A stretch of 64,000 nt of DNA from an uncultured virus (IMG/VR IMGVR_UViG_3300047548_000908) (taxonomy: Duplodnaviria > Heunggongvirae > Uroviricota > Caudoviricetes), in IMG/VR virus record IMGVR_UViG_3300047548_000908, positions 1 through 64,000 of that record; one strand, given 5' to 3'. Under the pieces are notes generated by a model. That model was not told the origin of the DNA and ran no database searches. It was given only the letters and a program-made list of their open reading frames with translations. Position numbers and translations under genes: made by a program. Positions 1 through 12,595 of the stretch are shown one piece after another. The stretch's first letter is position 1; each line of letters begins with the position of its first letter.

Positions 1-500
1 ATTTTTGAGGGTGAATCGAAGTATGCTGCAATGCCTCCTCCTATTCCAGACGAACCTGGTCCGCCATCGCTTGATGAATTTGCCGGACTACCTCCTGCTC
101 CGCCGTCACCACCTTTACCAATAATGTATCCGTAATTGTTTAAGAATAACCCATTTGGGTAAGTGCCGTTTACTATTAGTGCCGGTGTTCCGGAAGAAGT
201 GGAATAAAACCCATATGTACCTGCACCGTTGCCATCAATAACAAATTCTAATTTTGTGCTACTGTTCCATCCGTTTCCTGTTGCAATACTTCTTAAGTTG
301 CCGTTTGGTGTAATAGAGGTTATGTGTAAGGTTTTTCTATAAGAATCCGCTGCTAACCGAATCTCAGTATTCGCTTCTCGCTTCATTAGCCGAACCCTAA
401 CGTCAGACTCACTTAGTTTTGTTTGTCTTCCTGCTGGATAGCCCAACACTACGTTTAGATCCGCTATCGAAAATTTTCCAGATTCTGGGAAGTCAGGCAT
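1..500 (-). CDS. Glycine-rich tail-fibre adhesin, T-even gp38-like (truncated by window edge)
   Basis: Manual translation from ATG at 500: MPDFPESGKFSIADL...TPALIVNGTYPNGLFLNNYGYIIGKGGDGGAGG; glycine-loop pattern typical of gp38 adhesins. Confidence 0.6.
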   Translation of the reverse strand, partial: MPDFPESGKFSIADLNVVLGYPAGRQTKLSESDVRVRLMKREANTEIRLAADSYRKTLHITSITPNGNLRSIATGNGWNSSTKLEFVIDGNGAGTYGFYSTSSGTPALIVNGTYPNGLFLNNYGYIIGKGGDGGAGGSPANSSSDGGPGSSGIGGGIAAYFDSPSK

Positions 501-536
501 TTATAAGTCTCCAAATCATTACTTATTTATGCGAGG

Positions 537-825
537 TTGACATCAAACCTGCTCGGGGCTATACTACTCAAAATGCAGCTACGACAAATCAAGTCTAGGT
601 AAAAGTTTTTCCGAAATTTAAACAAAGGCTTGACATCTGTAAATAAGTAATGCATAATACGAAAATCAACTTCTGATCAATTTGCCCAAAATTGAAAAAT
701 AATTGAAAAAGAGGTTGACGAAGGAATAAATAAGTTATATACTGATAACTTCTGTAGCAAATTTTGTTCGAAGGAATAAATAAGTTATCAGAAGGCTTGA
801 CAGAAATGTTGAGCAGTGTTAGAAT
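537..825 (+). promoter_or_regulatory. Four tandem sigma70-like promoters upstream of the tRNA array
   Basis: TTGACA-17-TATACT (537-565), TTGACA-17-CATAAT (630-658), TTGACG-17-TATACT (715-743), TTGACA-17-TAGAAT (797-825); TAAATA motifs embedded. Confidence 0.8.
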
Positions 826-867
826 AGCAAAACTGAGAAATTTGAACGAAGGGATTTAACGAAGAAA

Positions 868-999
868 ATGTTTACGAAGTCAGGCAAGTATTATAATTGC
901 TGCTCCAAGCAGGTGTCAAATATGTCACCTCTCTGGTTTGCGATTAATGCACATGCCGATCGTGAACCTAGTAAAAGGGTCTTAGGAGATCGAATGTAA
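868..999 (+). CDS. Putative attenuator leader peptide (43 aa, contains all 20 amino acids)
   Basis: MFTKSGKYYNCCSKQVSNMSPLWFAINAHADREPSKRVLGDRM*; lies between the promoters and a terminator and overlaps the antiterminator arm. Confidence 0.7.
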   Translation: MFTKSGKYYNCCSKQVSNMSPLWFAINAHADREPSKRVLGDRM

Positions 1000-1022
1000 C
1001 TAAAAATTACGTTCACACACTC

Positions 1023-1062
1023 AAAAGACCCTGGAACTAAAAATCCCAGGGTTTTTGTTTTT
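1023..1062 (+). terminator. Intrinsic terminator (attenuator)
   Basis: AAAAGACCCTGG-loop-CCAGGGTTTTT followed by GTTTTT; 5' arm AAGACCCT is complementary to AGGGTCTT at 976-983. Confidence 0.8.
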
Positions 1063-1479
1063 CTACTTGCAAAGGAGTGAAAAATAGAGTATACTGAACA
1101 AGTCAAAGTTAGACGATTTGAAGATTGTTTTCTGACGCAGGAGCAACGGCAACGTTTGCTTCGTGCGAAAGTAGAACGCTACTTGAAATTAGTCAAACTA
1201 ATTAAGGGCGAGAGGACACCTTAAGTGTCTGTTGAATCGCAAAGTGTGTACAGGGAACGCGGTCCTGCAAGGCACTTAAAACATCTTGCTACTAACGAGG
1301 GCGGAGACAGGGATGATAAGTTCGTGGCGATAACACGAATGCGTAAAAACTGTCTTGTAGTAAAGCACATTACCACTGAGCCGAAAGCTAGAAAGATAAT
1401 TTCACTAGGTTAAAACGGGAGACTCAGAAAGGATAGTGTGTTTTACTACACGCACTGGAAACAGTGCGTTAATGAATAA

Positions 1480-1568
1480 GGGTGGTGCCCCGGTCAGCGG
1501 TCTGTAAAACCGTCGGCATTGTTAAGATCGGAAGTTGCCTCGTGGAGCGTTACCATCACCACCCACCA
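1480..1568 (+). tRNA. Atypical tRNA-Tyr(GTA)-like RNA
   Basis: Acceptor GGGTGGT/ACCACCC-ACCA, anticodon loop CTGTAAA, almost no D-arm, long variable region, T-loop AGCGTTA. Confidence 0.6.
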
Positions 1569-1574
1569 AACATC

Positions 1575-1649
1575 GGGCCTGTAGTGATAATGGGAGCACA
1601 GGGGCTTTGCAAGCCTTTAGTGGGAGTTCGATCCTCCCCAGGTCCACCA
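1575..1649 (+). tRNA. tRNA-Ala(TGC)
   Basis: Cloverleaf, loop TTTGCAA, G3:U70 pair, CCA. Confidence 0.9.
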
Positions 1650-1656
1650 AAACAAT

Positions 1657-1732
1657 GTCGGTATGGCAGAGCGTCTTATGCATCGGATTGCAAACCCGAT
1701 TTAGGTAGGTTAAACTCCTACTGCCGACTCCA
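1657..1732 (+). tRNA. tRNA-Cys(GCA)
   Basis: Cloverleaf, loop TTGCAAA, U discriminator, CCA. Confidence 0.85.
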
Positions 1733-1740
1733 AATGAATT

Positions 1741-2250
1741 ATGAATGATTTTCTAAAACTTCAACTTCCAATTAATGAAAGGTTTCTTTCATCTAAGTTA
1801 AGTAAAGGTGCATTCAAGTATAACTTGGGAGATTTTTTGTATTATAATCTCTTGCAGCCTTACAGAATTTTTGATGCCAAGTTCTTCTCTATCATGCGAC
1901 CTGATTCATTGTCTTATGTTGAGATACTAGGAAAAGAAACGGCTGCTCATCTAGACGTTAACGTCAATGTTAACTTGAACGTTTATGTTAACGGCAATGG
2001 CGGAGTAACTGAATTCTATACGTCAAGTGTAGAGTCAGAAAATAATTGGTTTGATTTAAAAAATCTAACTAAATGCAATGAATTTGTAGCAAATGAAAAT
2101 GACATTTACCTACTGAATGCACAGGAAATCCATCGAGTGAGTTCTATGGGTAATAGTCGAAGAGAAATAATTCAAGCTTGTTGGCACAATAAATCATTTC
2201 AAGAAGTGAAATTGTTGTTCCAACAAACATATGGTCTTATCTCGGTGTAG
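1741..2250 (+). CDS. Hypothetical protein, cupin/2OG-Fe(II) oxygenase-like
   Basis: HxD (HLD) ... distal H (EIHRV) ... R spacing; resembles 5075-5611. Confidence 0.45.
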   Translation: MNDFLKLQLPINERFLSSKLSKGAFKYNLGDFLYYNLLQPYRIFDAKFFSIMRPDSLSYVEILGKETAAHLDVNVNVNLNVYVNGNGGVTEFYTSSVESENNWFDLKNLTKCNEFVANENDIYLLNAQEIHRVSSMGNSRREIIQACWHNKSFQEVKLLFQQTYGLISV

Positions 2251-2319
2251 CTTAGTCCGGCTTAAAGCGCCTGCTTTGGGAGCAGGAGATCGTGAGTTCG
2301 AATCCCACCTCCGAGACCA
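2241..2319 (+). tRNA. tRNA-Pro(TGG)
   Basis: Cloverleaf, loop TTTGGGA, TTCGAAT, CCA. Confidence 0.9.
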
Positions 2320-2327
2320 ATATTAAT

Positions 2328-2402
2328 GCAGCATTCGTCTATCGGTTAGGACACGACCCTTTCACGGTCGGAAGAGGGGTTCGATTCCCCTATGCTGTAC
2401 CA
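2328..2402 (+). tRNA. tRNA-Glu(TTC)
   Basis: Cloverleaf, loop CTTTCAC, CCA. Confidence 0.9.
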
Positions 2403-2408
2403 AACTTC

Positions 2409-2496
2409 GGGTGATCGACTACGTTGGAGTGTAGTGGCGGGCTGTAACCCCGTTGCCCTCAGGGCTTAGTAGGTTCGACTCCTACATCACCCACCA
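2409..2496 (+). tRNA. tRNA-Tyr(GTA)
   Basis: Cloverleaf with long variable arm, loop CTGTAAC, CCA. Confidence 0.9.
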
Positions 2497-2503
2497 AAAA
2501 TAT

Positions 2504-2578
2504 GCTTGGTTCGTCTATCGGTTAGGACGCTAGACTTTCAATCTGGAAAGACGGGTTCAACTCCCGTACCGAGTACCA
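2504..2578 (+). tRNA. tRNA-Glu(TTC)
   Basis: Cloverleaf, loop CTTTCAA, CCA. Confidence 0.9.
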
Positions 2579-2587
2579 AATAATCAT

Positions 2588-2665
2588 CTGGGTATATTGT
2601 CAACCTGGTAGACGGCCGGGCTTGGAACTCGGAGGCTGCAGGTTCAAATCCTGCTACCCAGACCA
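2588..2665 (+). tRNA. tRNA-Pro(TGG)
   Basis: Cloverleaf, loop CTTGGAA, CCA. Confidence 0.9.
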
Positions 2666-2674
2666 ATTATTATT

Positions 2675-2751
2675 GCCTCGTTGGATCAGTTGGAGTGATC
2701 GTCTGCCTGTCACGCAGAAGGCCACGGGTTCAAGTCCCGTACGAGGCGCCA
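2675..2751 (+). tRNA. tRNA-Asp(GTC)
   Basis: Cloverleaf, loop CTGTCAC, G discriminator, CCA. Confidence 0.92.
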
Positions 2752-2758
2752 AATTTGA

Positions 2759-2835
2759 TGCGGAGTGGAGCAGTGGTTAGCTCGTCGGTCTCATAAGCCG
2801 AAGGTCGGGGGTTCGAATCCCTCCTCTCGCTACCA
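2759..2835 (+). tRNA. tRNA-Met(CAT), initiator-like
   Basis: Loop CTCATAA, unpaired 1:72, fMet-like D-arm, CCA. Confidence 0.8.
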
Positions 2836-2841
2836 GTTTTA

Positions 2842-2956
2842 GCCGCTGTCGTCTAATGGTAGGACGCTTAAAAAGCGAATCTGTCAAGATTACGTTCAGC
2901 AATTACAATTCCATGTCAAGGAAGATATCTAGGTTCGATTCCTAGCAGCGGCGCCA
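2842..2956 (+). tRNA. tRNA-Asp(GTC)-like RNA with a ~40-nt insertion between the D-arm and anticodon arm
   Basis: Acceptor GCCGCTG/CAGCGGC-GCCA, D-arm, TTCC-ATGTCAA-GGAA, T-arm CTAGG-TTCGATT-CCTAG; insert AATCT-GTCA-AGATT-ACGTT-CAGCAA. Confidence 0.65.
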
Positions 2957-2962
2957 GTTTAT

Positions 2963-3045
2963 GTGTGTTTGGTCAAAATGTTAGGGCATCACGACGCAGG
3001 GCTAACAACCTTGAAGTGCGGGTTCGAATCCCGTAACACACACCA
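2963..3045 (+). tRNA. Atypical tRNA-Val(AAC)-like
   Basis: Acceptor GTGTGTT/AACACAC-ACCA, loop CTAACAA, canonical T-arm, irregular D region. Confidence 0.55.
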
Positions 3046-3050
3046 GTTTT

Positions 3051-3112
3051 AGGATGCTTTCAGCAAACTTTATACATTAGACTTCTAATCTAAACCGTAA
3101 AAAGGCATCCTG
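3051..3112 (+). ncRNA. Stem-CAGCAA small RNA displaying an Arg(TCT) anticodon-like hairpin
   Basis: AGGATGC/GCATCCT closing stem, CAGCAAACTT, TTAGA-CTTCTAA-TCTAA. Confidence 0.6.
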
Positions 3113-3122
3113 TTTTGTTTAT

Positions 3123-3197
3123 TCCGGAGTAGCACAGCGGTAGTGCAGTTGACTGTTAATCAATTGGTCGTAGGTTCGATCCCTGCCTCCGGAGCCA
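3123..3197 (+). tRNA. tRNA-Asn(GTT)
   Basis: Cloverleaf, loop CTGTTAA, CCA. Confidence 0.92.
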
Positions 3198-3203
3198 AAT
3201 TGT

Positions 3204-3278
3204 TGGGGTATGGTGTAATGGTAGTCACAACGGATTTTGATTCCGTTAGTCTAGGTTCGATTCCTAGTACCCCTGCCA
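3204..3278 (+). tRNA. tRNA-Gln(TTG)
   Basis: Cloverleaf, loop TTTTGAT, CCA. Confidence 0.9.
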
Positions 3279-3283
3279 AAGTT

Positions 3284-3349
3284 TCACTGTGTACTTGGTA
3301 GTACGAGATTGGCGCGCAACTCGACTAGGTTCGATCCCTAGACAGTGAT
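3284..3349 (+). ncRNA. Degenerate tRNA-like element
   Basis: TCACTGT/ACAGTGA stem, D-like hairpin, T-arm CTAGG-TTCGATC-CCTAG; no proper anticodon loop or CCA. Confidence 0.5.
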
Positions 3350-3358
3350 TTAAGTTAT

Positions 3359-3434
3359 TACGGTGTAGTTCAATTGGCAGAACCCTGGTCTCCAAAACCA
3401 GATGTTGGGGGTTCAAGTCCCTCCACCGTAGCCA
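3359..3434 (+). tRNA. tRNA-Trp(CCA)
   Basis: Cloverleaf, loop CTCCAAA, CCA. Confidence 0.9.
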
Positions 3435-3548
3435 TATTAAAGCACACTAAGGCGCAGGCCGCGCTGATATGGGTGGTGCATAGCTTTGCCCTTAGAGCAA
3501 AGTCGGTAGGTTCAAGTCCTACAAGTGTGCTTCAATATGGTAATCGAT

Positions 3549-3624
3549 GGTGGCTATAGCTCAACGGTAGAGCCTCGGATTGTGATTCCGATAGATGTCG
3601 GTTCAAATCCGACTAGTCACCCCA
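3549..3624 (+). tRNA. tRNA-His(GTG)
   Basis: G-1, loop TTGTGAT, C discriminator, CCA. Confidence 0.9.
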
Positions 3625-3633
3625 AGAATTTTT

Positions 3634-3717
3634 GCCCCGGTGGTGGAATGGTAGACACGCTGGTCTTAGAAACCAGTGCCGAGAGGCGTGAGGGTTCGAA
3701 TCCCTCCTGGGGCACCA
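3634..3717 (+). tRNA. tRNA-Leu(TAG)
   Basis: Long variable arm, loop CTTAGAA, CCA. Confidence 0.92.
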
Positions 3718-3724
3718 AGAATAT

Positions 3725-3799
3725 GCGGGTATAGCACAGTGGTAGTGCATCTGCTTGCCAAGCAGAAGGTCGTCGGTTCGAACCCGACTACCCGCTCCA
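3725..3799 (+). tRNA. tRNA-Gly(GCC)
   Basis: Cloverleaf, loop TTGCCAA, TCCA end. Confidence 0.92.
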
Positions 3800-3897
3800 A
3801 AACGAAAGTTGCCTAGACGCAACAGCAACGGCTGTGAACTACTCATGATTTATTGAGTGTACAAGCAGCGCCGGAAAGCGTAACCGGTGCCCTTTTT

Positions 3898-3955
3898 AGG
3901 ATGCATTCAGCAAACTTAATTCTACTTCTTATTGGAAAAAGAAAAGCGCATCCTG
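3898..3955 (+). ncRNA. Stem-CAGCAA small RNA (second copy)
   Basis: AGGATGC/GCATCCT stem, CAGCAAACTTAATT, weak hairpin with a TTGGAA loop. Confidence 0.6.
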
Positions 3956-3965
3956 TTTTATAATT

Positions 3966-4039
3966 GGCCCTTTAGTTAAAAAGTATAACACCGTGCTGAT
4001 AACGCGGAGTCGGAGGAGCGTTACCTCCCGGGGCTACCA
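3966..4039 (+). tRNA. tRNA-Ile(GAT), non-canonical T-loop
   Basis: Loop CTGATAA, T-loop AGCGTTA, CCA. Confidence 0.8.
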
Positions 4040-4058
4040 AATTTTTAAGGAGATTGAC

Positions 4059-4079
4059 ATGAAACGAGGTAAGATGTAG
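4059..4079 (+). CDS. Putative micro leader peptide MKRGKM
   Basis: Strong SD AAGGAG at 4047-4052; followed by alternative RNA structures that overlap the tRNA-Lys 5' end. Confidence 0.45.
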   Translation: MKRGKM

Positions 4080-4142
4080 TGTCGCTCTAGATCCCATCGT
4101 AGGTCTAGAGTTGGCACGGTAAATCAACAATACGATCTATGA

Positions 4143-4217
4143 TGGGGTATAACTCAATGGTAGAGTAACCGGCTTTTAACCGGTAAGTTGGGGGTTCAAG
4201 TCCCCCTGCCCCAACCA
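4143..4217 (+). tRNA. tRNA-Lys(TTT)
   Basis: Cloverleaf, loop CTTTTAA, CCA. Confidence 0.9.
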
Positions 4218-4305
4218 TATTAAAGTGCATTATCCTGGCAAACACTGATCAGCAGGACCGAAAGGATATGAAAATAGTGTACTTCAATATGGTCAAGTAC
4301 GTTAA

Positions 4306-4382
4306 AGTGACGTAGTATTAGTGGAAATACGCAGTCCTCATAAGGCTGAAAGAAGCGAGTTCGAACCTCGCCGTCACTACCA
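4306..4382 (+). tRNA. tRNA-Met/Ile2(CAT)
   Basis: Cloverleaf, loop CTCATAA, CCA. Confidence 0.85.
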
Positions 4383-4395
4383 TCATATATACAAC

Positions 4396-5007
4396 ATGAA
4401 ACGATTTAACAGCTTAGTTCATTACATTTGGGTAGGAGAGAATTCTACCCCAGATAGTTTTTACGGTAACTATAGAAACACTATTGCAATGAATCCTTCT
4501 TATGGATTTATTCTATGGAAAGACTCAGATATTTTAGAGAACTTTCCGCATATCAAAGAATTGTACTTGAAAAGCACCTTGTTTCATAAGTTGCAATTAG
4601 CAAGGTATTCGGTGTTAGACAAATTTGGCGGTATCTATACTGATTTTGATATTAGGTGGAAAGTAGATTTCGATCATTTGTATTCCTTGTTTGATGAAGT
4701 AGATATGATATTTCCTAAAAGAAGAGGATTATACTTCTACAATCGAGGAATGAAAACCACGATGATTGATGACTTTGTGATTATTGCCAAAAAACATAAA
4801 ACTTCTGACTTCTTAAAGTTTTGCCAGTCACCTTGTGTTCCTAAACTCGATGAGACCTTTCCTTATGGAACACCCTCATTAACAGAATGGTTAATGACTA
4901 AGGAAAGTGTTGGGTATATAACACCTGAACAAATCTATGATGAGGAAACGTGTGAACTAGCTGTTCATGAAAATAAAAAAACTTGGCAAAAACTTAATGC
5001 CCCTTAA
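4396..5007 (+). CDS. Glycosyltransferase, DXD sugar-binding (GT32-like)
   Basis: VHYIWVG and ARYSVLDKFGGIYTDFD motifs; start moved to the ATG downstream of the tRNA. Confidence 0.75.
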   Translation: MKRFNSLVHYIWVGENSTPDSFYGNYRNTIAMNPSYGFILWKDSDILENFPHIKELYLKSTLFHKLQLARYSVLDKFGGIYTDFDIRWKVDFDHLYSLFDEVDMIFPKRRGLYFYNRGMKTTMIDDFVIIAKKHKTSDFLKFCQSPCVPKLDETFPYGTPSLTEWLMTKESVGYITPEQIYDEETCELAVHENKKTWQKLNAP

Positions 5008-5074
5008 GCTAATCTAGTGAAAGCATATGCCTGAAGAGCATGGGAGTCTGGAGCGTAACCAGAAGGGGGCACCA
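4999..5074 (+). tRNA. tRNA-Phe(GAA), non-canonical T-loop
   Basis: Loop CTGAAGA, T-loop AGCGTAA, CCA. Confidence 0.8.
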
Positions 5075-5611
5075 TTAAACAATCAGATCAGAAAAAATAG
5101 AGATAGCATCGCGCATAGATAAAAATTGATTATGCTGGTTTTGTAAAACTAGGCTGATACAATATCGTTCTGCTTTTGAATTTATAACTGCATGCGGGAC
5201 TCCTACTTGAACTAGGTAAGCTCCTCGTAGTTGTTCTTTGTGTACAAGATTGACTTCATCTCGTTTGTAGTACAAGTAGTTGCTGTTTATAGCCGTTTTA
5301 AATGGAATCTTTACAATAGAAGGATCTTTTGGTGCAAACCAAAACATTGTGCTGTTTTCTCCGCCGTATATCCAGTTGATTTTAACAATGTCTCCCCCTA
5401 GATCATCGGTGTGAATATTGACAATATCAAATGGTTTTCTATAGAAAATTTCTGCCCAGCTTATGGAAATGTTTCTTTCCGATAAAAATGATTGAATTTC
5501 AGGGTTGATTTCTGACTTATCTAATACGGTGTGTTCTTTCTTTATAGAATATAGATCGAAAGTACTAGAGACGGGAGAAAGATCAAGGTTAAGTTTATTG
5601 CAGTAATTCAT
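5075..5611 (-). CDS. Hypothetical protein, cupin/2OG-Fe(II) oxygenase-like
   Basis: IHTD ... VPHAV ... RYCISL spacing. Confidence 0.5.
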   Translation of the reverse strand: MNYCNKLNLDLSPVSSTFDLYSIKKEHTVLDKSEINPEIQSFLSERNISISWAEIFYRKPFDIVNIHTDDLGGDIVKINWIYGGENSTMFWFAPKDPSIVKIPFKTAINSNYLYYKRDEVNLVHKEQLRGAYLVQVGVPHAVINSKAERYCISLVLQNQHNQFLSMRDAISIFSDLIV

Positions 5612-5630
5612 GACAATATTTATTGGAGTT

Positions 5631-5704
5631 GCCCCTGTGGTTTAATAGTAAAATACATCTTTGGTAAAGATGAGTAGGAGGAGCGTAACCTTCCTGGGGC
5701 ACCA
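5631..5704 (+). tRNA. tRNA-Thr(GGT), non-canonical T-loop
   Basis: Loop TTGGTAA, T-loop AGCGTAA, CCA. Confidence 0.8.
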
Positions 5705-5711
5705 AACATAA

Positions 5712-5801
5712 GGAGAAGTGGCCGAGTGGTTTATGGCTCTAGTCTTGAAAACTAGCGTAGGGGAAACTCTACCGTGAGTTCGAATCTCACCTTCTCCGCC
5801 A
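5712..5801 (+). tRNA. tRNA-Ser(TGA)
   Basis: Long variable arm, loop CTTGAAA, GCCA. Confidence 0.92.
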
Positions 5802-5808
5802 AAAATAA

Positions 5809-5884
5809 AGGACCTTAGCTCAGTTGGTAGAGCGTCTGCCCTACACGCAGAATGTCGTCAGTTCGAACCTGGCAGGTCCTACCA
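5809..5884 (+). tRNA. tRNA-Val(TAC)
   Basis: Cloverleaf, loop CCTACAC (C33), CCA. Confidence 0.85.
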
Positions 5885-5890
5885 AACTCT

Positions 5891-5967
5891 ACTTCCTTAG
5901 TTCAGTGGTCAAGAACGCTTGCATGACACGCAAGAGGTCAGAAGTTCGATTCTTCTAGGAAGTACCA
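5891..5967 (+). tRNA. tRNA-Val(GAC)
   Basis: Cloverleaf, loop ATGACAC, CCA. Confidence 0.88.
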
Positions 5968-5968
5968 C

Positions 5969-5997
5969 TTGACATACATATAAGAGATATGTATAAT
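5969..5997 (+). promoter_or_regulatory. Consensus sigma70 promoter driving the ncRNA cluster
   Basis: TTGACA-17-TATAAT. Confidence 0.85.
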
Positions 5998-6003
5998 TAT
6001 TGA

Positions 6004-7250
6004 CATCATATCAAAGCATATGTCCGTAAGAATCGGGGGTTTGAAATCGGAAACTTCGTGACCCGAGTATGCTTTGATATGGTGTGAAGCTGATCTGTAT
6101 GTCAGCGGTAGTCGATGAAGCGGAAACTATACACGATACTTGATAAGGTGCAATGACACCGGCGGGTCGTTGAACATAAGCAGAGGCTATGACTAGACCA
6201 CGTACTGCGAGAAATCCGGATGCATACGGAGAGTAACAAGACTCGTGGACACCAGACTAATAACAAGAGGTATCTATGAACAAAACAATAACGCTCGCCG
6301 AGTTTGAAAAGCAGTTTAAAGAGTATTACGCTAATTTGGATAAGCCTACAAGCATAGATGGATTCATGGGTAACTGGGCATGGTATCTTCATGCAAGGAA
6401 TGAGTTCAGGAAGAAGTTAGAAGAACAAGGCGTTACCATATTAAAGTAGATTGAGTGCGAAAAAGAATTCCGTTGAACAAACGGCCACTTAACAGTCTAC
6501 TTCAATATGGTTGCAACCAGGAATAAAGCCTGTCTTTGACAAGTCACTCGAGGCTCTACCCCCTCCGTTAAAAGTGGTCAGGAGAGTGACACTATATTAA
6601 AACACATTGGTTGGTATCGGAGTGGGGCAACAGCCATAAACTTCCTGCCCCTTTGAAGGGAAGTACCAGTGTGTTTCAATATGGTGAAAGCCAGTAAGAG
6701 CAGCGGTCTCTTCTCTAAGTTGCGTCCAGTATGAGCAGCACGGTAAGCTAGCTAAATCCGTGGGCAGGCAATAGTATCAAAAAGAAACTTAGATGACAGC
6801 CAGGAAAGACTGGCACCATATTGAAACATATTCTTTGAGGTCTTGGTCGTTACCAGCGTATGCGAAAACGGCGACAGAATATGTTTCAATATGGTAAATG
6901 CGTAGGCTGATACGCAGTAGCTGGTTATGCGGATTGCAGGCCCAGACCATCGTTTAGGGTAGCGTCAGGAAACAGGACGTAGCAGTGCAATCAAGTTGGA
7001 GATCAGCACCAACTACCATATTGAAGCACACTTAACACTATGAGGACTCAAGCTGGTGGTGCAGTTGTAGTCGCTGTGTGTGCGCCTAGTGTGTTTCAAT
7101 ATGGTAACAAAACCGAGGAAGGAGCCGCCAAAGAGCGACGATGCGTACCACCCTGACGTTACGGTGGCATACTATATTAGGTGGGTTCATGCATCTGCCG
7201 TCTGGGACATCCCTCGACCCAGTGTCAAGTACGAAAACCTTGACACCATT
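6004..7250 (+). ncRNA. Cluster of unannotated structured RNAs, five of them closed by a conserved ACCATATT.../...AATATGGT helix
   Basis: Helix-closed units 6004-6084, 6435-6511, 6590-6686, 6815-6895, 7014-7106, separated by hairpin-rich segments that mostly end in ACCA. Confidence 0.6.
6276..6449 (+). CDS. Small hypothetical protein (57 aa)
   Basis: SD GAGG, MNKTITLAEFEKQFKEYY...; below the ORF-track cutoff. Confidence 0.55.
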   Translation: MNKTITLAEFEKQFKEYYANLDKPTSIDGFMGNWAWYLHARNEFRKKLEEQGVTILK

Positions 7251-7275
7251 CCAACAACTCAGCTTTAGGAATAGA

Positions 7276-7461
7276 ATGAAAACTCGCAACCTTGGTCGTA
7301 AAACTAAGCAAGTCAAATTTAGTAATCAGAAGAGGTATCCAGTATTCAATAGTAACTTTACTCCTCAGAAGCAAACAGTTAAGTTTAACTTTAGTATTCC
7401 AGTTTGGAAGATTGTTCTCGTAATTATTTTCTTTATTTGCTGGGCAATGCTAGTCCTTTAA
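7276..7461 (+). CDS. Small basic protein with C-terminal TM helix
   Basis: SD AGGA, MKTRNLGRK...IVLVIIFFICWAMLVL. Confidence 0.55.
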   Translation: MKTRNLGRKTKQVKFSNQKRYPVFNSNFTPQKQTVKFNFSIPVWKIVLVIIFFICWAMLVL

Positions 7462-7463
7462 TT

Positions 7464-7539
7464 GCGCCTCTAGCTTAATGGATAGAGTCCTGGTCTTCGA
7501 AACCAGTTTGTGGGGGTTCGACTCCCTCGAGGCGCGCCA
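7464..7539 (+). tRNA. tRNA-Arg(TCG)
   Basis: Cloverleaf, loop CTTCGAA, CCA. Confidence 0.88.
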
Positions 7540-7551
7540 ACTAAATAAAAT

Positions 7552-7782
7552 ATGTATAAGGTTTATTACACTGATCCAATTGATAATAAGTGCTATAATT
7601 GGGATTGTGATGTGTTAAGTGATGCACTTTCAGTAACAGAAACTTTTCGTAAGAGAGGAATGAGTTTCGTAACAATGGTAAGCGAGAACCCTAATCAAAT
7701 AGGAAAGACTGGTGTTGATTCTGTGGAGAATGGATTATGTCCAGATGGGATCGCGTACACTTGGCGTAAACGACGAAAATAA
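7552..7782 (+). CDS. Hypothetical protein
   Basis: ORF after a TAAATA motif. Confidence 0.6.
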   Translation: MYKVYYTDPIDNKCYNWDCDVLSDALSVTETFRKRGMSFVTMVSENPNQIGKTGVDSVENGLCPDGIAYTWRKRRK

Positions 7783-7834
7783 TGTTCATTAAAAACGTTG
7801 ATGTCTAAATACCGCTGTATTTTAAGGTGAGTTA

Positions 7835-8620
7835 ATGAAAACAGTTTTAATGTGTGATCCAAAACATTTTGAAGTTTCATATGATATTAATCCTTGGATG
7901 ACATCTCATATAGGAAAGGTGGACAATCATTTGGCTCAATCAGGATGGTTCGCTTTGTTTGAAGCATTGAGTAAAATTGCTATTGTGAAATTAGTCAAAG
8001 GTGTACCTGGACTTCCTGATTTGGTTTTTACTGCAAACGCGGGTTCAGTGCATGGTGATGTAGTGGTTCTTTCTAGGTTTACAAATTTAGAACGAACAGG
8101 CGAAGAGCCTATTTTTCGTGAATGGTTTCAAAACAATGGATTTAACGTGATCCAACCTGCCTTGCCATATGAGGGAGAAGGTGATCATATCGTTGACTCA
8201 AAAGGAAGGCATTGGTTAGGTTCTGGGTTTAGAACTAATCGATTAGTGTCTTACGAATTAGAACATATTCTAAGAAAGCACATCAATGTACTTGAATTAG
8301 TTGATCCAAGGTGGTATCACTTGGATACTTGTTTTTGTCCACTGCCAAATGGTGGATTAATGTGGTACCCAAATGCGTTCTCAAAGAGTAGTCAGGACTT
8401 GATTTACAGGTCTTTTTCAGATAGTATAACCGTATCTACAGGCGATGCACTAAGATTCGGGTGTAACTGCGTAGGGATAGGTGAACACTTGTTTATTCCC
8501 AATAATACCACCGTAGCAAATCAATTGCGTTCTGTAGGATACACCGTGCATGAGTTTGAATTGAGCGAATTCATAAAATCTGGTGGTGCGGCAAAATGCC
8601 TAGTTTTAAACATCAACTGA
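7835..8620 (+). CDS. Amidinotransferase/dimethylarginine dimethylaminohydrolase family
   Basis: INPWM, PDLVFTANAG, EGEGD, YHLDT, GGAAKC motifs. Confidence 0.88.
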   Translation: MKTVLMCDPKHFEVSYDINPWMTSHIGKVDNHLAQSGWFALFEALSKIAIVKLVKGVPGLPDLVFTANAGSVHGDVVVLSRFTNLERTGEEPIFREWFQNNGFNVIQPALPYEGEGDHIVDSKGRHWLGSGFRTNRLVSYELEHILRKHINVLELVDPRWYHLDTCFCPLPNGGLMWYPNAFSKSSQDLIYRSFSDSITVSTGDALRFGCNCVGIGEHLFIPNNTTVANQLRSVGYTVHEFELSEFIKSGGAAKCLVLNIN

Positions 8621-8631
8621 GCGCAGTAAAC

Positions 8632-8637
8632 TAAATA
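8632..8637 (+). promoter_or_regulatory. T4-like late promoter core TAAATA (representative copy)
   Basis: TAAATA shortly upstream of many starts (7552, 7835, 8657, 14099, 15045, 17290, 17745, 35873, 38138, 43863, 45595) and as TATTTA for minus-strand genes. Confidence 0.6.
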
Positions 8638-8656
8638 AAACATATTAGGAGTATCC

Positions 8657-10603
8657 ATGTCAATATCCAATTTATTCAAAAGTAATTTTGAAAAGACCGC
8701 ATACAAGTCTATGACCATAGATGAGTATCTTGACCTATGCAAAAGTGACAAGATGGCTTACGCCACAGCCGCAGAACGAATGATTGCAGCGATTGGTGAG
8801 CCAGAGCTAGTGGACACTAGCAAAGATTCTCGTCTAAGCAGAATCTTCACTAATCGTACAGTAAGAATGTACCCAGCATTCAAAGAGTTCTATGGTATGG
8901 AAGATGCAATCGAACGTATTGTAGGGTACTTCAGACATGCAGCACAAGGACTAGAAGAACGTAAACAAATTCTATACCTACTAGGACCAGTTGGTGGCGG
9001 TAAGTCATCACTTGCTGAACGCCTTAAGGAGTTGATGGAGCTCAACCCTATCTATGCACTAGCAACTGAAACAGGTGAGATTAGTCCTGTATTCGAAAGT
9101 CCACTAGGGCTGTTCTCTTCAGTACCACAGTTCAGAGAACATTTGTTTGAACAATATGGAATAGAAGGACGCTATCTCAATAGCATCATGAGTCCGTGGG
9201 CTATGAAGAGGCTAAAAGAATTCAATGGTGACATCACTAAGTTCCGAGTAGTTAAGTTAATGCCTAGTAAACTAGAGCAAATTGCAGTCATGAAGACTGA
9301 GCCTGGTGATGAAAACAACCAAGACATCAGTACCCTAGTTGGTAAGGTTGATATTCGTAAACTAGAACAATACAGCCAAAATGATACTGATGCCTATAGC
9401 TATAGCGGTGGATTGAACAGAGCTAATCAAGGCCTACTTGAATTCGTAGAGATGTTTAAGGCTCCTATCAAAGTGCTACATCCTCTACTTACAGCCACAC
9501 AGGAGGGAAACTATGTCGGTACAGAAGCAATCTCTGCTATACCGTTTCAAGGAATTGTTCTTGCCCACTCTAACGAAAGTGAATGGCAAACCTTTAGAAA
9601 CAACAAAAACAACGAAGCGTTTCTTGACAGGATATGCGTTGTCAAGGTACCGTATTGCTTGCGTGTTGACGAAGAAGTTAAGATTTACGAAAAAATGATC
9701 AAGAGTTCGGGCCTAGGTGCAGCACCTTGTGCTCCTCAGACAGTCGAAATGCTAGCACAGTTTAGTGTATTGACTAGACTTCGTGAACATGAAAATAGCA
9801 CCCTCTTTAGTAAGATGCGAGTCTACAATGGAGAAAACATTCGTGACAGTGATCCTAAAGCAAAGTCTATTCAGGAATATCACGATGTTGCAGGTGTAGA
9901 TGAGGGTATGGATGGCATTTCAACTCGATTTGCTTACAAGATTCTAAGTCAGACCTTTAACTTCACTCCAGAAGAAATCGCAGCAGACCCCGTACATCTA
10001 ATGTTTGTACTTGAGAACGCAATTAAGCGTGAACAGTTTGGATCAGATCGTGAACAAAAGTATCTTGATTTTATTAAGAGTGAGTTGTCTACTAGATATG
10101 CAGAGTTTCTAGGTAATTCTATTCAACGTGCATATCTAGAATCATATAGTGACTATGGGCAAAACTTGTTTGATCGCTATGTAGATTTTGCTGATGCATG
10201 GATTCAGAACATTGAATTCAAAGATCCAGATACTGGACTAATGATGGATAGGGCTTTGCTGAACTCAGAGCTTGAGAAGATCGAGAAGCCTGCAGGGATT
10301 TCTAATCCAAAAGATTTTAGAAACGAAGTAGTCAACTTCTGCCTAAGAGCAAGAGCTAAACCCGAGAACGGTGGAAAGAATCCTGCTTGGACTAGCTACT
10401 CAGTTCTTCGTGACGTTATTGAAAAGAGAATGTTTAGTCAAGTAGAAGACCTTCTACCAGTCATCAGTTTTGATAGCAAGAAGGATAAAGAACTTGAGAA
10501 GAAGCACAACGACTTTGTGACCAGAATGATTGGTCTAGGATACACCGAAAGACAAGTAAGACGTTTGTGTGACTGGTATCAGAGAGTTCGTAAGAGTTCT
10601 TAA
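8657..10603 (+). CDS. yeaG: PrkA/YeaG family AAA+ serine protein kinase
   Basis: GPVGGGKS Walker A, EPGDENNQDIS, EFVEMFKAPIKVLHPLLTATQE. Confidence 0.95.
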   Translation: MSISNLFKSNFEKTAYKSMTIDEYLDLCKSDKMAYATAAERMIAAIGEPELVDTSKDSRLSRIFTNRTVRMYPAFKEFYGMEDAIERIVGYFRHAAQGLEERKQILYLLGPVGGGKSSLAERLKELMELNPIYALATETGEISPVFESPLGLFSSVPQFREHLFEQYGIEGRYLNSIMSPWAMKRLKEFNGDITKFRVVKLMPSKLEQIAVMKTEPGDENNQDISTLVGKVDIRKLEQYSQNDTDAYSYSGGLNRANQGLLEFVEMFKAPIKVLHPLLTATQEGNYVGTEAISAIPFQGIVLAHSNESEWQTFRNNKNNEAFLDRICVVKVPYCLRVDEEVKIYEKMIKSSGLGAAPCAPQTVEMLAQFSVLTRLREHENSTLFSKMRVYNGENIRDSDPKAKSIQEYHDVAGVDEGMDGISTRFAYKILSQTFNFTPEEIAADPVHLMFVLENAIKREQFGSDREQKYLDFIKSELSTRYAEFLGNSIQRAYLESYSDYGQNLFDRYVDFADAWIQNIEFKDPDTGLMMDRALLNSELEKIEKPAGISNPKDFRNEVVNFCLRARAKPENGGKNPAWTSYSVLRDVIEKRMFSQVEDLLPVISFDSKKDKELEKKHNDFVTRMIGLGYTERQVRRLCDWYQRVRKSS

Positions 10604-10614
10604 AGGAAAGCTAG

Positions 10615-11871: not shown

Positions 11872-11873
11872 GC

Positions 11874-12584
11874 ATGAAGATAAGTGAGATATTACCTCTT
11901 TTTGAAAACGCATCATCTAGCATAGGTGCAATATTTCTAAATGATAACGCGGTAGTAGTAGGACAGGCGCACGGGAAACCATTACAATTATCTCCTGAAA
12001 CTCTTCAACGTGTTCAAATGATAGCCAAAAAATACGGTGCTTGGTATGAAGGCAACGGTACAGACGCTCCATTAACTAAAGGTCAAATAGACAATTATAA
12101 AGGAAGCTGGGATGATCAGGTAGCTAATGACATAGACCCAAATGATTACAAGTGGTTATATGTTTTGTTTTCTAACGTCGATGAAAATAATAGAGTTCAA
12201 CGAGTTGGAGTCGACCCAAATGATTCAATATTCAATCGTTTATTAAAGACTGCTAAGGACAATTCGTTCCAGAACATAGGATTTACTTCCAATGCCCTTA
12301 CAGAATTTTTGTCTAATGCTAGTGAGGGGAAATATGACTTCGTTGCAATGAGCAAACAGTCGGCTACAGAAGAAAACCTAGCTAACTTTTTAAAGTCAGG
12401 TGAGCAGTTAATGTGGCCTAAGAATTGGGGATCTTATCCTTATAAGGCAGGAAGAATAGCCAAAGCTGCTACAGTTGATACTAGAGATCAATATCTCGCT
12501 ACTAGAAAAACTGGTGTATATGTTACTGGTAGTGGGCACCTAATCGCGGTTAGTAAAATCAGCGGTAAACCAATAATACCCTAA
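11874..12584 (+). CDS. Hypothetical protein inserted in the yeaH-ycgB operon
   Basis: 236-aa ORF with MKISEI N-terminus. Confidence 0.7.
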   Translation: MKISEILPLFENASSSIGAIFLNDNAVVVGQAHGKPLQLSPETLQRVQMIAKKYGAWYEGNGTDAPLTKGQIDNYKGSWDDQVANDIDPNDYKWLYVLFSNVDENNRVQRVGVDPNDSIFNRLLKTAKDNSFQNIGFTSNALTEFLSNASEGKYDFVAMSKQSATEENLANFLKSGEQLMWPKNWGSYPYKAGRIAKAATVDTRDQYLATRKTGVYVTGSGHLIAVSKISGKPIIP

Positions 12585-12595
12585 AAGGAATTGTT

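What the first reader, a model, noticed from the sequence alone, without database searches (positions are those of the whole stretch)
4047..4217. Micro-ORF MKRGKM and an RNA switch over the tRNA-Lys 5' end
Seen: a strong SD precedes ATG AAA CGA GGT AAG ATG TAG, which uses both Lys codons. Immediately after it is a hairpin at 4078-4116 (CTCTAGATC/GGTCTAGAG core). Its loop and 3' arm CCCATCGTAGGTC (4093-4105) can alternatively form 13 bp with GATCTATGATGGG (4134-4146), which includes the first bases of tRNA-Lys(TTT). Inference: a ribosome at the stop codon melts the hairpin, so tRNA-Lys is sequestered. Stalling at a Lys codon leaves it free to fold and mature. tRNA-Lys is the established target of PrrC-type nucleases.
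Basis: partly seen in the sequence, partly recalled or inferred. Interest (0 to 1): 0.72.

Follow-up and report, generated by a model that had tools for sequence, protein, structure and literature searches.

The report
Leader switch guarding phage tRNA-Lys
A six-codon mini-gene with two lysine codons, followed by two competing RNA hairpins, sits in front of a giant phage's lysine tRNA gene, recurs in dozens of related phages, and looks built to free the tRNA only when lysine decoding falters.

Summary
In the window, a Shine-Dalgarno site (4047-4052) precedes a six-codon ORF, MKRGKM* (4059-4079). Hairpin H1 (4079-4117) starts at the G of the stop codon. A rival hairpin, H2 (4091-4148), has 22 pairs rather than 13 and buries nt 1-6 of tRNA-Lys(UUU).

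Relatives:
- Two were found without using the ORF (L010/L011, L135). Both keep the ORF, H1 and H2 with different, compensating sequences.
- A scan with the ORF motif alone gave 70 viral contigs. In 69, the first tRNA downstream, 56-68 nt after the TAG, is tRNA-Lys. The tRNA upstream varies.
- Features outside the search motif are conserved in all 52 unique leaders: SD, UGUC, H1 and GGCAC.
- All 13 leaders of the window's type carry a 16-23 bp H2.

Equilibrium folding with a ribosome placed at a Lys codon favours the tRNA fold. A ribosome at the stop codon, or none, favours sequestration.

Best reading (0.45): a trp-attenuator-like switch whose output is tRNA-Lys 5' maturation rather than termination. 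No experiment exists, and half of the window-type leaders fold "off" in every modelled state. No Rfam family covers the leader, and four paper searches found no such element. I rate it a new variant of a known kind, of high interest.

The parts
3966..4039 (+). tRNA-Ile(GAU)-like gene with encoded CCA, directly upstream of the leader
   Evidence: Rfam tRNA model, 41.7 bits at 3966-4036. ARAGORN missed it. The anticodon was read by eye. In 5 related loci a tRNA-Ile(GAU) ends 21 nt before the micro-ORF ATG.
4047..4052 (+). Shine-Dalgarno site AAGGAG, ending 6 nt before the ATG
   Evidence: An SD core ending 6-8 nt before the AUG is present in 52 of 52 unique leaders although it was not in the search pattern. 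Anti-SD duplex energy is -7.4 against -2.1 kcal/mol for 768 control windows.
4059..4079 (+). Micro-ORF ATG AAA CGA GGT AAG ATG TAG (MKRGKM*), with Lys codons at positions 2 and 5
   Evidence: Relatives read MKSAKM* (L010/L011), MKRGKI* (L135) and MKRGK-x-* (70 loci). It is the only ATG-started micro-ORF with a strong SD found before any tRNA of this tRNA cluster.
4056..4060 (+). Segment 1: GACAU, which can pair with GUGUC 4079-4083 and would enclose the micro-ORF
   Evidence: Invariant in all 52 leaders, but partly forced by the search pattern. On its own it is weak: -2.3 kcal/mol, z -0.27.
4079..4117 (+). Hairpin H1 (segments 2:3): GUGUC-g-CUCUAGAUC / loop CCAUCGUA / GGUCUAGAG-uu-GGCAC. It begins at the G of the stop codon.
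   Evidence: -19.2 kcal/mol, z -4.8. It folds full-length in 52 of 52 unique leaders. Covariation: 92.7% of 643 cells paired, 8 of 15 pairs changed on both sides, 0 of 500 shuffles as high.
4091..4148 (+). Hairpin H2 (segments 3:4): 4091-4107 pairs with 4131-4148 (C4133 bulged), capped by GUUGG 4110-4114 / UCAAC 4124-4128. It contains tRNA nt +1..+6 (4143-4148) and excludes both H1 and the acceptor stem.
   Evidence: -25.4 kcal/mol, z -6.25. It is the MFE and centroid of leader plus tRNA. A 16-23 bp equivalent is present in 13 of 13 tRNA-Lys(UUU)-type leaders.
4113..4123 (+). Sequence-conserved GGCACGGUAAA. GGCAC is the 3' base of H1, and CACGGUAAA is the apical loop of H2.
   Evidence: GGCAC and a following AAA are invariant in 52 of 52 leaders and lie outside the search pattern. 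W and L011 would read this block in different frames past the TAG (by eye), so it is not conserved as coding sequence.
4143..4217 (+). tRNA-Lys, anticodon UUU, with encoded CCA
   Evidence: ARAGORN; Rfam 72.7 bits.
4219..4293 (+). Trailer stem ATTAAAGTGCA ... TGTACTTCAAT directly after the tRNA. It is conserved in relatives, and its role in the module is unknown.
   Evidence: Read by eye. Similar stems follow tRNA-Lys in L011 and L135, and tRNA-Trp in the window at 3436-3541.

Best explanation
The 4047-4148 stretch is a ribosome-operated RNA switch, laid out like the trp attenuator, that decides whether the phage's tRNA-Lys(UUU) can fold and have its 5' end matured.

Four segments pair in alternation:
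- segment 1: SD/AUG region (GACAU)
- segment 2: GUGUC plus the 5' arm of H1
- segment 3: the loop and 3' arm of H1
- segment 4: the pre-tRNA leader plus tRNA nt +1..+6
- segment 4 can also pair with the 3' strand of the acceptor stem.

Proposed operation:
- If 2:3 (H1) forms, segment 4 is free. The acceptor stem closes and RNase P can cut.
- If segment 2 is unavailable, 3:4 (H2) forms and the tRNA 5' strand is locked away.
- A ribosome that finishes the six-codon ORF sits on the UAG and opens the base of H1, which favours H2 (off).
- A ribosome stalled at AAA (codon 2) or AAG (codon 5) for want of usable Lys-tRNA covers segment 1 only and leaves H1 intact (on).

The result would be feedback supply of phage tRNA-Lys when lysine decoding fails, for instance after host tRNA-Lys is cleaved by an anticodon nuclease.

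Shown here: the sequence elements, their conservation and covariation, their exclusive linkage to tRNA-Lys genes, and the energetics. Inferred: translation of the ORF, stalling, the effect on RNase P processing, and the physiological trigger.
For: 1. Relatives found without using the ORF keep it. L010/L011 came from a PrkA protein scan. L135 came from a loop-plus-tRNA pattern. Both have an SD, six codons, K2, K5 and UAG, and H1 and H2 built from different sequences.

2. A scan with the 24-nt ORF motif alone gave 70 viral loci. In 69 of 70, the first downstream tRNA is tRNA-Lys, 56-68 nt after the TAG. The exception is cut 59 nt after the motif start. Of the 69, 52 have Lys(CUU) followed by Lys(UUU), and 17 have Lys(UUU) first. 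The upstream tRNA varies over at least 12 identities.

3. Features outside the motif are conserved in 52 of 52 unique leaders: SD; UGUC, GGCAC and AAA; a full-length H1 with mean z -4.5.

4. H1 covaries. 92.7% of cells are paired against 85.5% in shuffles. 46 cells are changed on both sides against 11.9. 0 of 500 shuffles reach the observed value. Slid controls pair 22-46%.

5. H2 is present in 13 of 13 Lys(UUU)-type leaders, with mean -25.8 kcal/mol, z -6.2 and 4-7 tRNA nt paired. 24 of 28 anchored positions show changes on both sides.

6. In the 39 Lys(CUU)-type leaders, a 7-nt stretch of the H1 3' arm pairs with leader -4..-1 plus tRNA +1..+3. 88% of cells are paired against 30-55% in slid registers. 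One pair reads T-A 21, A-T 12, G-C 1.

7. Equilibrium model with the ribosome unwinding to P-site +10, giving acceptor-stem probability for free RNA / stall at codon 2 / stall at codon 5 / stop:
- window: 0.07 / 0.91 / 0.87 / 0.00
- Lys(CUU)-type, n=39: 0.39 / 0.80 / 0.85 / 0.30
- Lys(UUU)-type, n=13: 0.28 / 0.43 / 0.46 / 0.08

8. In the window the two states are near-degenerate (-56.5 off, -54.6 on). Findpath barriers between them, in 7 window-type (Lys(UUU)-type) leaders, are 14-25 kcal/mol (on to off) and 21-36 (off to on). The choice would therefore be made during transcription.

9. Metagenome contigs laid on the window vary at codon 6 and in H1, but not in the SD or codons 1-5. One contig end reads ATG AAA CGT GGT AAA CGT, where the codon 3 and codon 5 changes are synonymous.

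10. The leader is single-copy in 5 of 5 large relatives' records. It is the only ATG-started, strong-SD micro-ORF found before a tRNA of the window's cluster.
Against: - No experiment supports it. No usable RNA ends were obtained; the RNA run laid held only contigs of a relative.
- In 7 of 13 Lys(UUU)-type leaders (L011, L146, L153, L180, L181, L208, L210) the equilibrium model never brings acceptor-stem probability above 0.5; it stays at or near 0 in six of them and peaks at 0.34 in L210. In L135 (the same contig as L181), H2 beats the tRNA fold by about 10 kcal/mol. Control would therefore have to be kinetic.
- With a longer assumed footprint (+15), a stall at codon 5 gives 'off' in the window.
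- Segment 1:2 is weak on its own (z -0.27).
- There are only two Lys codons. AAA as second codon is common in well-translated genes (recalled).
- The ORF start resembles the start of a longer ORF in relatives (L101/L120). MK..K may therefore be inherited rather than selected.
- Codons 1-5 of the 70 loci were fixed by the search pattern. Their constancy there is not independent evidence.
- In Lys(CUU)-type leaders both Lys codons are AAA (39 of 39). The tRNA-Lys(CUU) immediately downstream should not read AAA.
- Plain folding also mispredicts other tRNAs of the cluster. Mean acceptor-pair probability is 0.13 for Trp and 0.25 for Thr.
- The model omits pseudoknots, tRNA tertiary structure and base modifications.
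Confidence: 0.45

Rival explanations
1. Processing or stability element. H1 and H2 are RNase III/E-type processing stems or protective hairpins that cut tRNA-Lys out of a long multi-tRNA precursor. The micro-ORF is a relic of a longer upstream ORF, or merely loads ribosomes. Lysine is not sensed.
For: - The cluster holds other long conserved stems between tRNAs: 3050-3112 and 3899-3955, and trailer stems after tRNA-Trp and tRNA-Lys.
- H2 is a 16-23 bp duplex, of a length I recall as typical of RNase III substrates.
- H2 is thermodynamically dominant in several relatives whatever the ribosome position.
- Relatives L101/L120 carry a 51-codon ORF at the same place with a similar SD and start, AGGAGATT..ATGAAACG.
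Against: - A simple processing stem does not need a second, mutually exclusive hairpin (H1) kept by covariation in 52 of 52 leaders.
- It does not explain an SD at fixed spacing in 52 of 52.
- It does not explain a stop codon whose last base is the first base of H1 in every leader.
- The other stems of the cluster do not overlap tRNA bodies (by eye). H2 always takes in 4-7 tRNA nucleotides.
- A relic ORF would not keep start, frame, length and stop across the diverged lineages found independently of the ORF.
Confidence: 0.25
2. The H1/H2 switch is real but is set by something other than Lys-codon stalling. Candidates are a protein or RNA binding the invariant GGCAC..AAA loop, tRNA-Lys itself (T-box-like, with the loop AAA as specifier), RF1 availability at the UAG, or general translation rate.
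For: - GGCAC and AAA are sequence-invariant in 52 of 52 leaders while the stems vary. This suggests specific recognition.
- UAG, read only by RF1 (recalled), is the stop in every leader. It ends 6 of 75 long frames (at least 600 nt between stop codons) of the record.
- Equilibrium models do not give Lys-position dependence in 7 of 13 window-type leaders.
Against: - There is no Rfam T-box or other family hit at E<=1 over 4040-4142.
- UAG is the only stop codon ending in G, so it is also forced by the H1 base pair.
- GGCAC invariance is explained by its two alternative partners.
- Lys2 and Lys5 are the residues kept in the most divergent leader, MKSAKM.
Confidence: 0.17
3. The conserved xTGACA-N17-TAGTGT is a sigma-70-type promoter for tRNA-Lys, and the ORF is coincidental.
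For: TTGACA (4054-4059) lies 17 nt before TAGTGT (4077-4082) in the window. The spacing is constant in all leaders.
Against: - The second hexamer matches TATAAT at only 3 of 6 positions, and the promoter scan did not list the site.
- The first hexamer is TTGACA in only 8 of 52 leaders; ATGACA occurs in 32 and other forms in 12.
- A start about 7 nt after TAGTGT would fall inside the 5' arm of H1, whose complementarity is maintained by covariation.
- A promoter does not explain the SD.
Confidence: 0.05

Closest known systems
Leader-peptide transcription attenuators (trp, his, leu, thr, pheST operons of enterobacteria)
   Same: An SD-led short ORF carries codons cognate to the controlled product. 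It is followed by overlapping alternative hairpins 1:2, 2:3 and 3:4. A ribosome stalled in segment 1 favours 2:3. A ribosome at the stop codon, or no ribosome, favours 3:4. This is the same direction as in the models.
   Different: - 3:4 is not an intrinsic terminator; no U-run follows H2. It contains the first 6 nt of a tRNA instead.
- The controlled product is the tRNA itself, not an amino-acid biosynthesis or synthetase gene.
- The ORF has six codons with two separated Lys codons.
- The element is phage-borne and sits inside a tRNA cluster.
T-box riboswitches
   Same: Both are cis-acting leader RNAs with mutually exclusive helices that report on one tRNA species.
   Different: T-boxes bind uncharged tRNA directly, need no ribosome, and control aminoacyl-tRNA synthetase or amino-acid genes. 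No T-box model hit occurs here.
Translational attenuation leaders (ermC, cat)
   Same: The position of a ribosome on a very short leader ORF remodels a downstream hairpin pair.
   Different: There the output is exposure of the SD of a downstream protein gene and the trigger is an antibiotic. Here there is no downstream ORF before the tRNA.
Phage lambda bar minigenes (recalled)
   Same: Both are phage-borne SD-led ORFs of a few codons connected with tRNA availability.
   Different: As I recall, bar minigenes act by peptidyl-tRNA drop-off that traps the tRNA of the last sense codon. Here the last sense codon is the variable one, with 13 different codons in 52 leaders, and the structure downstream is conserved.

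Membership tests
Leader-peptide (trp-type) transcription attenuator | Short leader ORF with its own ribosome-binding site | tested here: met
   AAGGAG ends 6 nt before the ATG. An SD is present in 52 of 52 leaders. Translation itself was not tested.
Leader-peptide (trp-type) transcription attenuator | Regulatory codons cognate to the controlled product within the leader ORF | tested here: inconclusive
   There are two Lys codons (positions 2 and 5) before a tRNA-Lys gene. They are kept in L010/L011 and L135, which were found independently of the ORF. There are only two, they are not adjacent, and in the 70 loci they were fixed by the search pattern.
Leader-peptide (trp-type) transcription attenuator | Overlapping, mutually exclusive hairpins 2:3 and 3:4 | tested here: met
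   H1 and H2 share 4091-4117. Both are supported by covariation.
Leader-peptide (trp-type) transcription attenuator | 3:4 is an intrinsic terminator (GC-rich stem followed by a U-run) | tested here: not met
   H2 is followed by AUAACUCAAUGG, which is tRNA body. No + strand terminator-like site was listed there. The element works like an attenuator but is not a member of this family.
T-box riboswitch | Match to the T-box covariance model (specifier loop, T-box sequence) | tested here: not met
   No hit at E<=1 in 1-9000.
Sigma-70 promoter | Two hexamers with at least 4 of 6 matches each at 16-18 nt spacing | tested here: not met
   TAGTGT matches TATAAT at 3 of 6 positions and the site is not listed by the scan. 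TTGACA occurs in 8 of 52 leaders.
RNase III processing site | Cleavage of a roughly 20 bp duplex by RNase III | not testable with these tools
   H2 is 16-23 bp in 13 of 13 window-type leaders. No cleavage data exist.
Minigene (lambda bar type) | Effect tied to the tRNA of the last sense codon | tested here: not met
   The last sense codon is variable, with 13 different codons in 52 leaders.

The most novel reading that the evidence does not exclude
This is the first leader-peptide attenuator whose output is a tRNA. It would be a phage-encoded sensor of lysine decoding that holds its own tRNA-Lys precursor in a misfolded state that RNase P cannot cut. It would release the tRNA only when ribosomes stall at Lys codons, for example after a host anticodon nuclease has destroyed cellular tRNA-Lys. 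Independent phage lineages may reach the same end more directly, with Lys-rich ORFs that terminate at or inside tRNA-Lys (L097, L098, L101/L120).
Probability: 0.35. Interest if true: 0.9.

Novelty: new variant of a known kind. Interest (0 to 1): 0.8.

Why it matters
Phage tRNA genes are now seen as counter-measures against host nucleases that cut tRNAs, with tRNA-Lys a prominent target. PMC10264068 (passages read) states this for PrrC. The title and abstract start of PMC11464382 (listing only) state it for PARIS. How phages control their tRNAs is essentially unexplored.

A conserved, translated leader that couples lysine decoding to maturation of the phage's own tRNA-Lys would have three consequences:
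- It would extend ribosome-mediated attenuation from protein-coding operons to a tRNA gene.
- It would add a new output, sequestration of the acceptor stem instead of termination.
- It would give a compact natural sensor of tRNA-Lys function.

The idea is directly testable with a roughly 180-nt construct in a laboratory strain.

Tried and rejected
- An exact 26-mer of H1 had no match in viral contigs.
- Exact or degenerate tRNA-Lys patterns in viral contigs gave only L010/L011's contigs. A pattern I mis-specified gave an unrelated locus, L089, with no leader.
- The first ORF pattern (codon 6 fixed as ATG) gave only L010/L011's contigs and one chance hit inside a coding region, L086.
- An ORF-start plus tRNA D-arm pattern gave 8 loci. 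Five were unrelated: four lie before a different, non-Lys tRNA (anticodon read by eye), and one, L138, lies before another non-Lys tRNA.
- The metagenome scan with a tRNA-Lys 29-mer gave 44 loci. None carries the window-type leader. Only L101/L120 are clearly of the same lineage, and they have a long ORF and no anti-acceptor helix (acceptor probability 0.86 and 0.93).
- Cultured phages gave no match to the window's leader beyond the tRNA itself, and none to a Lys(CUU)-type leader.
- Genome contigs gave 0 hits for the loop-plus-tRNA pattern. The ORF pattern gave 2 short MAG contigs, L215 and L216, titled Planktophila and Crocinitomicaceae. No host can be inferred from them.
- Mobile palindromic element: rejected, because the motifs are single-copy in the 137-kb record.
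- UAG read-through: no suppressor tRNA was found in the 137 kb, and the conserved GGCACGGTAAA would be read in different frames in W and L011 (by eye).
- Start-stop (AUG UAG) idea: rejected, because codon 6 varies.
- The plain acceptor-stem probability test across all tRNAs was not discriminating. Several other tRNAs score low, and some ARAGORN ends lack CCA, so their indices are unreliable.
- The small-protein family of L101 has no Pfam, NCBIfam or PDB match and only weak PHROG hits. The Atlas lists only unnamed viral clusters.
- The RNA run X19 holds contigs of a relative covering 4047-4083 only. That does not show transcription of this leader.
- Earlier notes of this scan: none for this genome.
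- One translation request failed on a frame error of mine and was not repeated.

Full report
**Setting**

The window is the first 64 kb of a 137,127-base viral record that CheckV estimates as 35% complete, so it is a fragment of a jumbo phage. Bases 1575-7539 hold a + strand tRNA cluster. ARAGORN finds 22 tRNAs in the window and none beyond it in the rest of the 137-kb record. Rfam adds further tRNA-like hits, one of them at 3966-4036.

Downstream lie a glycosyltransferase-like ORF, a PrkA/DUF444/SpoVR trio and other phage genes. No cultured phage resembles the region beyond the tRNA itself. The nearest PrkA matches in the cultured and uncultured phage collection are at most 67% identical.

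The small minus-strand ORFs over the finding (3972-4130, 4105-4245) overlap tRNA genes. I found nothing to support them.

**The observation**

All elements are present as described:
- SD AAGGAG at 4047-4052
- ATG AAA CGA GGT AAG ATG TAG at 4059-4079
- a hairpin
- an alternative pairing that reaches into tRNA-Lys(UUU) (4143-4217)

Both structures are larger than reported.
- H1 runs from the G of the stop codon to 4117. GUGUC pairs with GGCAC beneath the CUCUAGAUC/GGUCUAGAG core. It folds at -19.2 kcal/mol with z -4.8.
- H2 spans 4091-4148 and folds at -25.4 kcal/mol with z -6.25. No shuffle out of 200 did as well for either hairpin.
- H2 is the MFE and centroid fold of leader plus tRNA, and it replaces the acceptor stem.
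- Its leader-junction duplex is the strongest among the 22 tRNAs of the record (-28.8 against -21.1 for the next best; 1 of 2000 shuffles reached it).

**Relatives found without reference to the ORF**

Scanning viral contigs with the PrkA protein gave 80 loci. Only L010/L011, two near-identical contigs, carry this tRNA-Lys at 93% identity. Their leader reads GGAGAGUGAC AUG AAA UCU GCG AAG AUG UAG UGUC. It is followed by:
- a 14-bp H1 of entirely different sequence
- a continuous 21-bp H2 that takes in tRNA nt +1..+6
- the same apical loop GGCACGGUAAA

A pattern made only of that loop and the tRNA D-arm found a third lineage, L135. It has MKRGKI*, with H1 and H2 again built from other sequences. 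The junctions differ between lineages (GAUCUAUGA|UGGGGU, CAGCAUC|GGGGGU, CACUAUGC|GGGGG), and the H1 loop of each is complementary to its own junction.

**A widespread module tied to tRNA-Lys**

The last viral scan used GACATGAAACGNGGTAARNNNTAG, which contains no tRNA sequence. It returned 70 loci with 54 unique cores.
- In 69 of 70, the first downstream tRNA is tRNA-Lys, 56-68 nt after the TAG. The exception, L184, is cut 59 nt after the motif start.
- In L193, ARAGORN missed the first tRNA. By eye it matches the tRNA-Lys(CUU) of L207.
- 52 loci have tRNA-Lys(CUU) followed 3-6 nt later by tRNA-Lys(UUU). 17 have tRNA-Lys(UUU) first, as the window does.
- The upstream tRNA is Ala, Met, Ile, Asp, Thr, Phe, Cys, Arg, Gln, Pro, Leu or Val.
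- The leader is single-copy in 5 of 5 large records, of 159-367 kb.

Features outside the pattern hold in all 52 unique leaders:
- an SD core ending 6-8 nt before the AUG
- UGUC after the TAG, GGCAC, and a following AAA
- a full-length H1

H1 covaries:
- 92.7% of 643 cells are paired
- 8 of 15 pairs are changed on both sides
- 46 such cells are seen, against 11.9 in shuffles
- 0 of 500 shuffles reach the observed values
- slid registers pair 22-46%

RNAalifold on the plain MAFFT alignment also returns H1.

**Two forms of the anti-acceptor pairing**

- Lys(UUU)-type leaders (13, including the window). All have a 16-23 bp H2 with mean -25.8 kcal/mol, z -6.2 and 4-7 tRNA nt paired.
- Lys(CUU)-type leaders (39). 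No long H2 exists (mean -11.9 kcal/mol, z -1.4). However, the 7 nt ending at the GG of GGCAC pair with leader -4..-1 plus tRNA +1..+3. 88% of cells are paired against 30-55% when slid, and one pair reads T-A 21 / A-T 12 / G-C 1.
- Also in the Lys(CUU)-type, the H1 loop CCGUAU is complementary to UACG just 5' of that junction stretch in 39 of 39 (mean z -2.2). The order of the partners implies a pseudoknot, which I could not model.

In both forms, the strand that closes H1 is also the strand that can capture the tRNA's 5' end.

**How it most likely works**

The arrangement matches the trp attenuator segment for segment, with one difference: '3:4' holds the first nucleotides of a tRNA instead of forming a terminator.

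I placed a ribosome on the ORF, assuming it opens pairs up to P-site +10. That figure is recalled from the literature on ribosomal helicase activity. I then asked for the acceptor-stem probability.

| Set | Free RNA | Stall, Lys codon 2 in A site | Stall, Lys codon 5 in A site | Stop codon |
|---|---|---|---|---|
| Window | 0.07 | 0.91 | 0.87 | 0.00 |
| Lys(CUU)-type, mean (n=39) | 0.39 | 0.80 | 0.85 | 0.30 |
| Lys(CUU)-type, leaders above 0.5 | 16 | 34 | 36 | 10 |
| Lys(UUU)-type, mean (n=13) | 0.28 | 0.43 | 0.46 | 0.08 |

In the window the two states differ by only 1.9 kcal/mol. Estimated refolding barriers, computed for 7 window-type (Lys(UUU)-type) leaders, are 14-25 kcal/mol from on to off and 21-36 from off to on. 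The decision would therefore be taken while the RNA is being made, as in attenuators. Prefix folding of L135 shows H1 forming first and H2 taking over once the junction is transcribed.

**What argues against, or limits, this reading**

- Nothing here shows translation, stalling or an effect on processing.
- In 7 of 13 window-type leaders the equilibrium model never brings acceptor-stem probability above 0.5; it is at or near 0 in six and peaks at 0.34 in L210.
- With a +15 footprint, a stall at codon 5 gives 'off' in the window.
- GACAU:GUGUC alone is not significant.
- Codons 1-5 in the 70 loci were imposed by the pattern. The independent support for the ORF is L010/L011, L135 and the read-laying.
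- In the read-laying, metagenome contigs at 80% likeness or more differ from the window at codon 6 (4074-4076) and in H1 (4084, 4092, 4093, 4096, and single-base gaps). They do not differ in the SD or codons 1-5. One contig end reads ATG AAA CGT GGT AAA CGT.
- In Lys(CUU)-type leaders both Lys codons are AAA (39 of 39), a codon the adjacent tRNA-Lys(CUU) should not read. If lysine is sensed, it is the UUU isoacceptor's function that is sensed.
- The ORF start resembles that of a longer ORF in L101/L120, so part of MK..K may be ancestral.

**Rivals**

- Pure processing or stability role for the hairpins. This remains possible, because the cluster has other long conserved stems. It does not explain the maintained competition between H1 and H2, the SD, or the fusion of the stop codon to H1.
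- Promoter reading. It fails the scan's own criteria, and TTGACA is present in only 8 of 52 leaders.
- Control by another ligand of the invariant loop. This cannot be excluded.

**Known systems and novelty**

- No Rfam family other than tRNA covers 4040-4142 at E<=1.
- Four full-text searches listed no paper whose title or abstract start describes a leader ORF or attenuator in front of a tRNA gene.
- Passages of PMC10264068 give the PrrC/tRNA-Lys context but no such element.
- The PARIS papers were seen as a listing only.

The element works like a leader-peptide attenuator but fails that family's defining terminator feature. I file it as a new variant of that kind, with a tRNA as output.

**Verdict**

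The conserved, covarying, tRNA-Lys-specific leader is real with high confidence. I hold the Lys-stalling mechanism at about 0.45. Interest: 0.8.

Noticed in passing
L101 and L120 (tRNA-Lys loci); proteins P0001-P0012: A family of 45-69-residue basic proteins (consensus ..RNPFVVAAL.RKAGSHRKSNKALR..) has no Pfam, NCBIfam or PDB match. In L101/L120 the gene has a consensus promoter and an SD, and its stop codon lies inside tRNA-Lys(UUU). Five other members end in PLGV, which would also fit reading into a tRNA-Lys 5' end (my inference). RNase P cleavage would leave a message without a stop codon, a logic recalled from arfA.
   Followed up: partly
L097 and L098: Other phage lineages have SD-led micro-ORFs ending at tRNA-Lys. 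MKRKQKRKYRKPK* stops 4 nt before the tRNA and is overlapped by the stop of an upstream ORF. MDSDKVRKHMRA* stops inside the tRNA. This may be a direct-occlusion version of the same idea.
   Followed up: no
window 2409-2492, 2842-2953, 2963-3042, 3966-4036, 4999-5071: Rfam reports tRNA-like hits that ARAGORN does not list. 2842-2953 is 112 nt long, so it may carry an insertion. 2409-2492 scores only with the tRNA-Sec model, below its threshold.
   Followed up: no
window 3047-3116 and 3894-3959; also L135: A long stem, AGGATGC...GCATCCT followed by GTTTT, is repeated between tRNAs (74% identity between the two window copies). In L135 a similar stem encloses tRNA-like fragments. It may be a terminator or a processing stem.
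   Followed up: no
window 3436-3541 and 4219-4293; L011, L135 and many of L145-L214: A conserved trailer stem starts right after the CCA (ATATTAAAGCACA ... TGTGCTTCAATATGG). It follows tRNA-Trp and tRNA-Lys and encloses inserts of varying length. After tRNA-Trp the insert looks tRNA-like.
   Followed up: no
window 537-825 and 5969-5997: Four near-consensus sigma-70-like promoters stand in tandem upstream of the tRNA cluster (11, 11, 10 and 11 of 12 matches). A perfect 12 of 12 site follows tRNA-Val. They are likely drivers of the cluster.
   Followed up: no
window 8657-14044: A PrkA kinase, DUF444 and SpoVR-like trio lies in a phage genome. 224 of 233 candidate viral stretches encode a PrkA relative.
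   Followed up: no
L004, L008, L016, L023: Some PrkA relatives, including the two closest (L004 86%, L008 85% identity), carry a tRNA with anticodon CUA, which ARAGORN labels 'Pyl'. This may be an amber suppressor. None is seen in the 137 kb of this record.
   Followed up: partly
window 31357-32775: An ORF has DUF2828 and DUF7788 domains. Its function is unknown.
   Followed up: no
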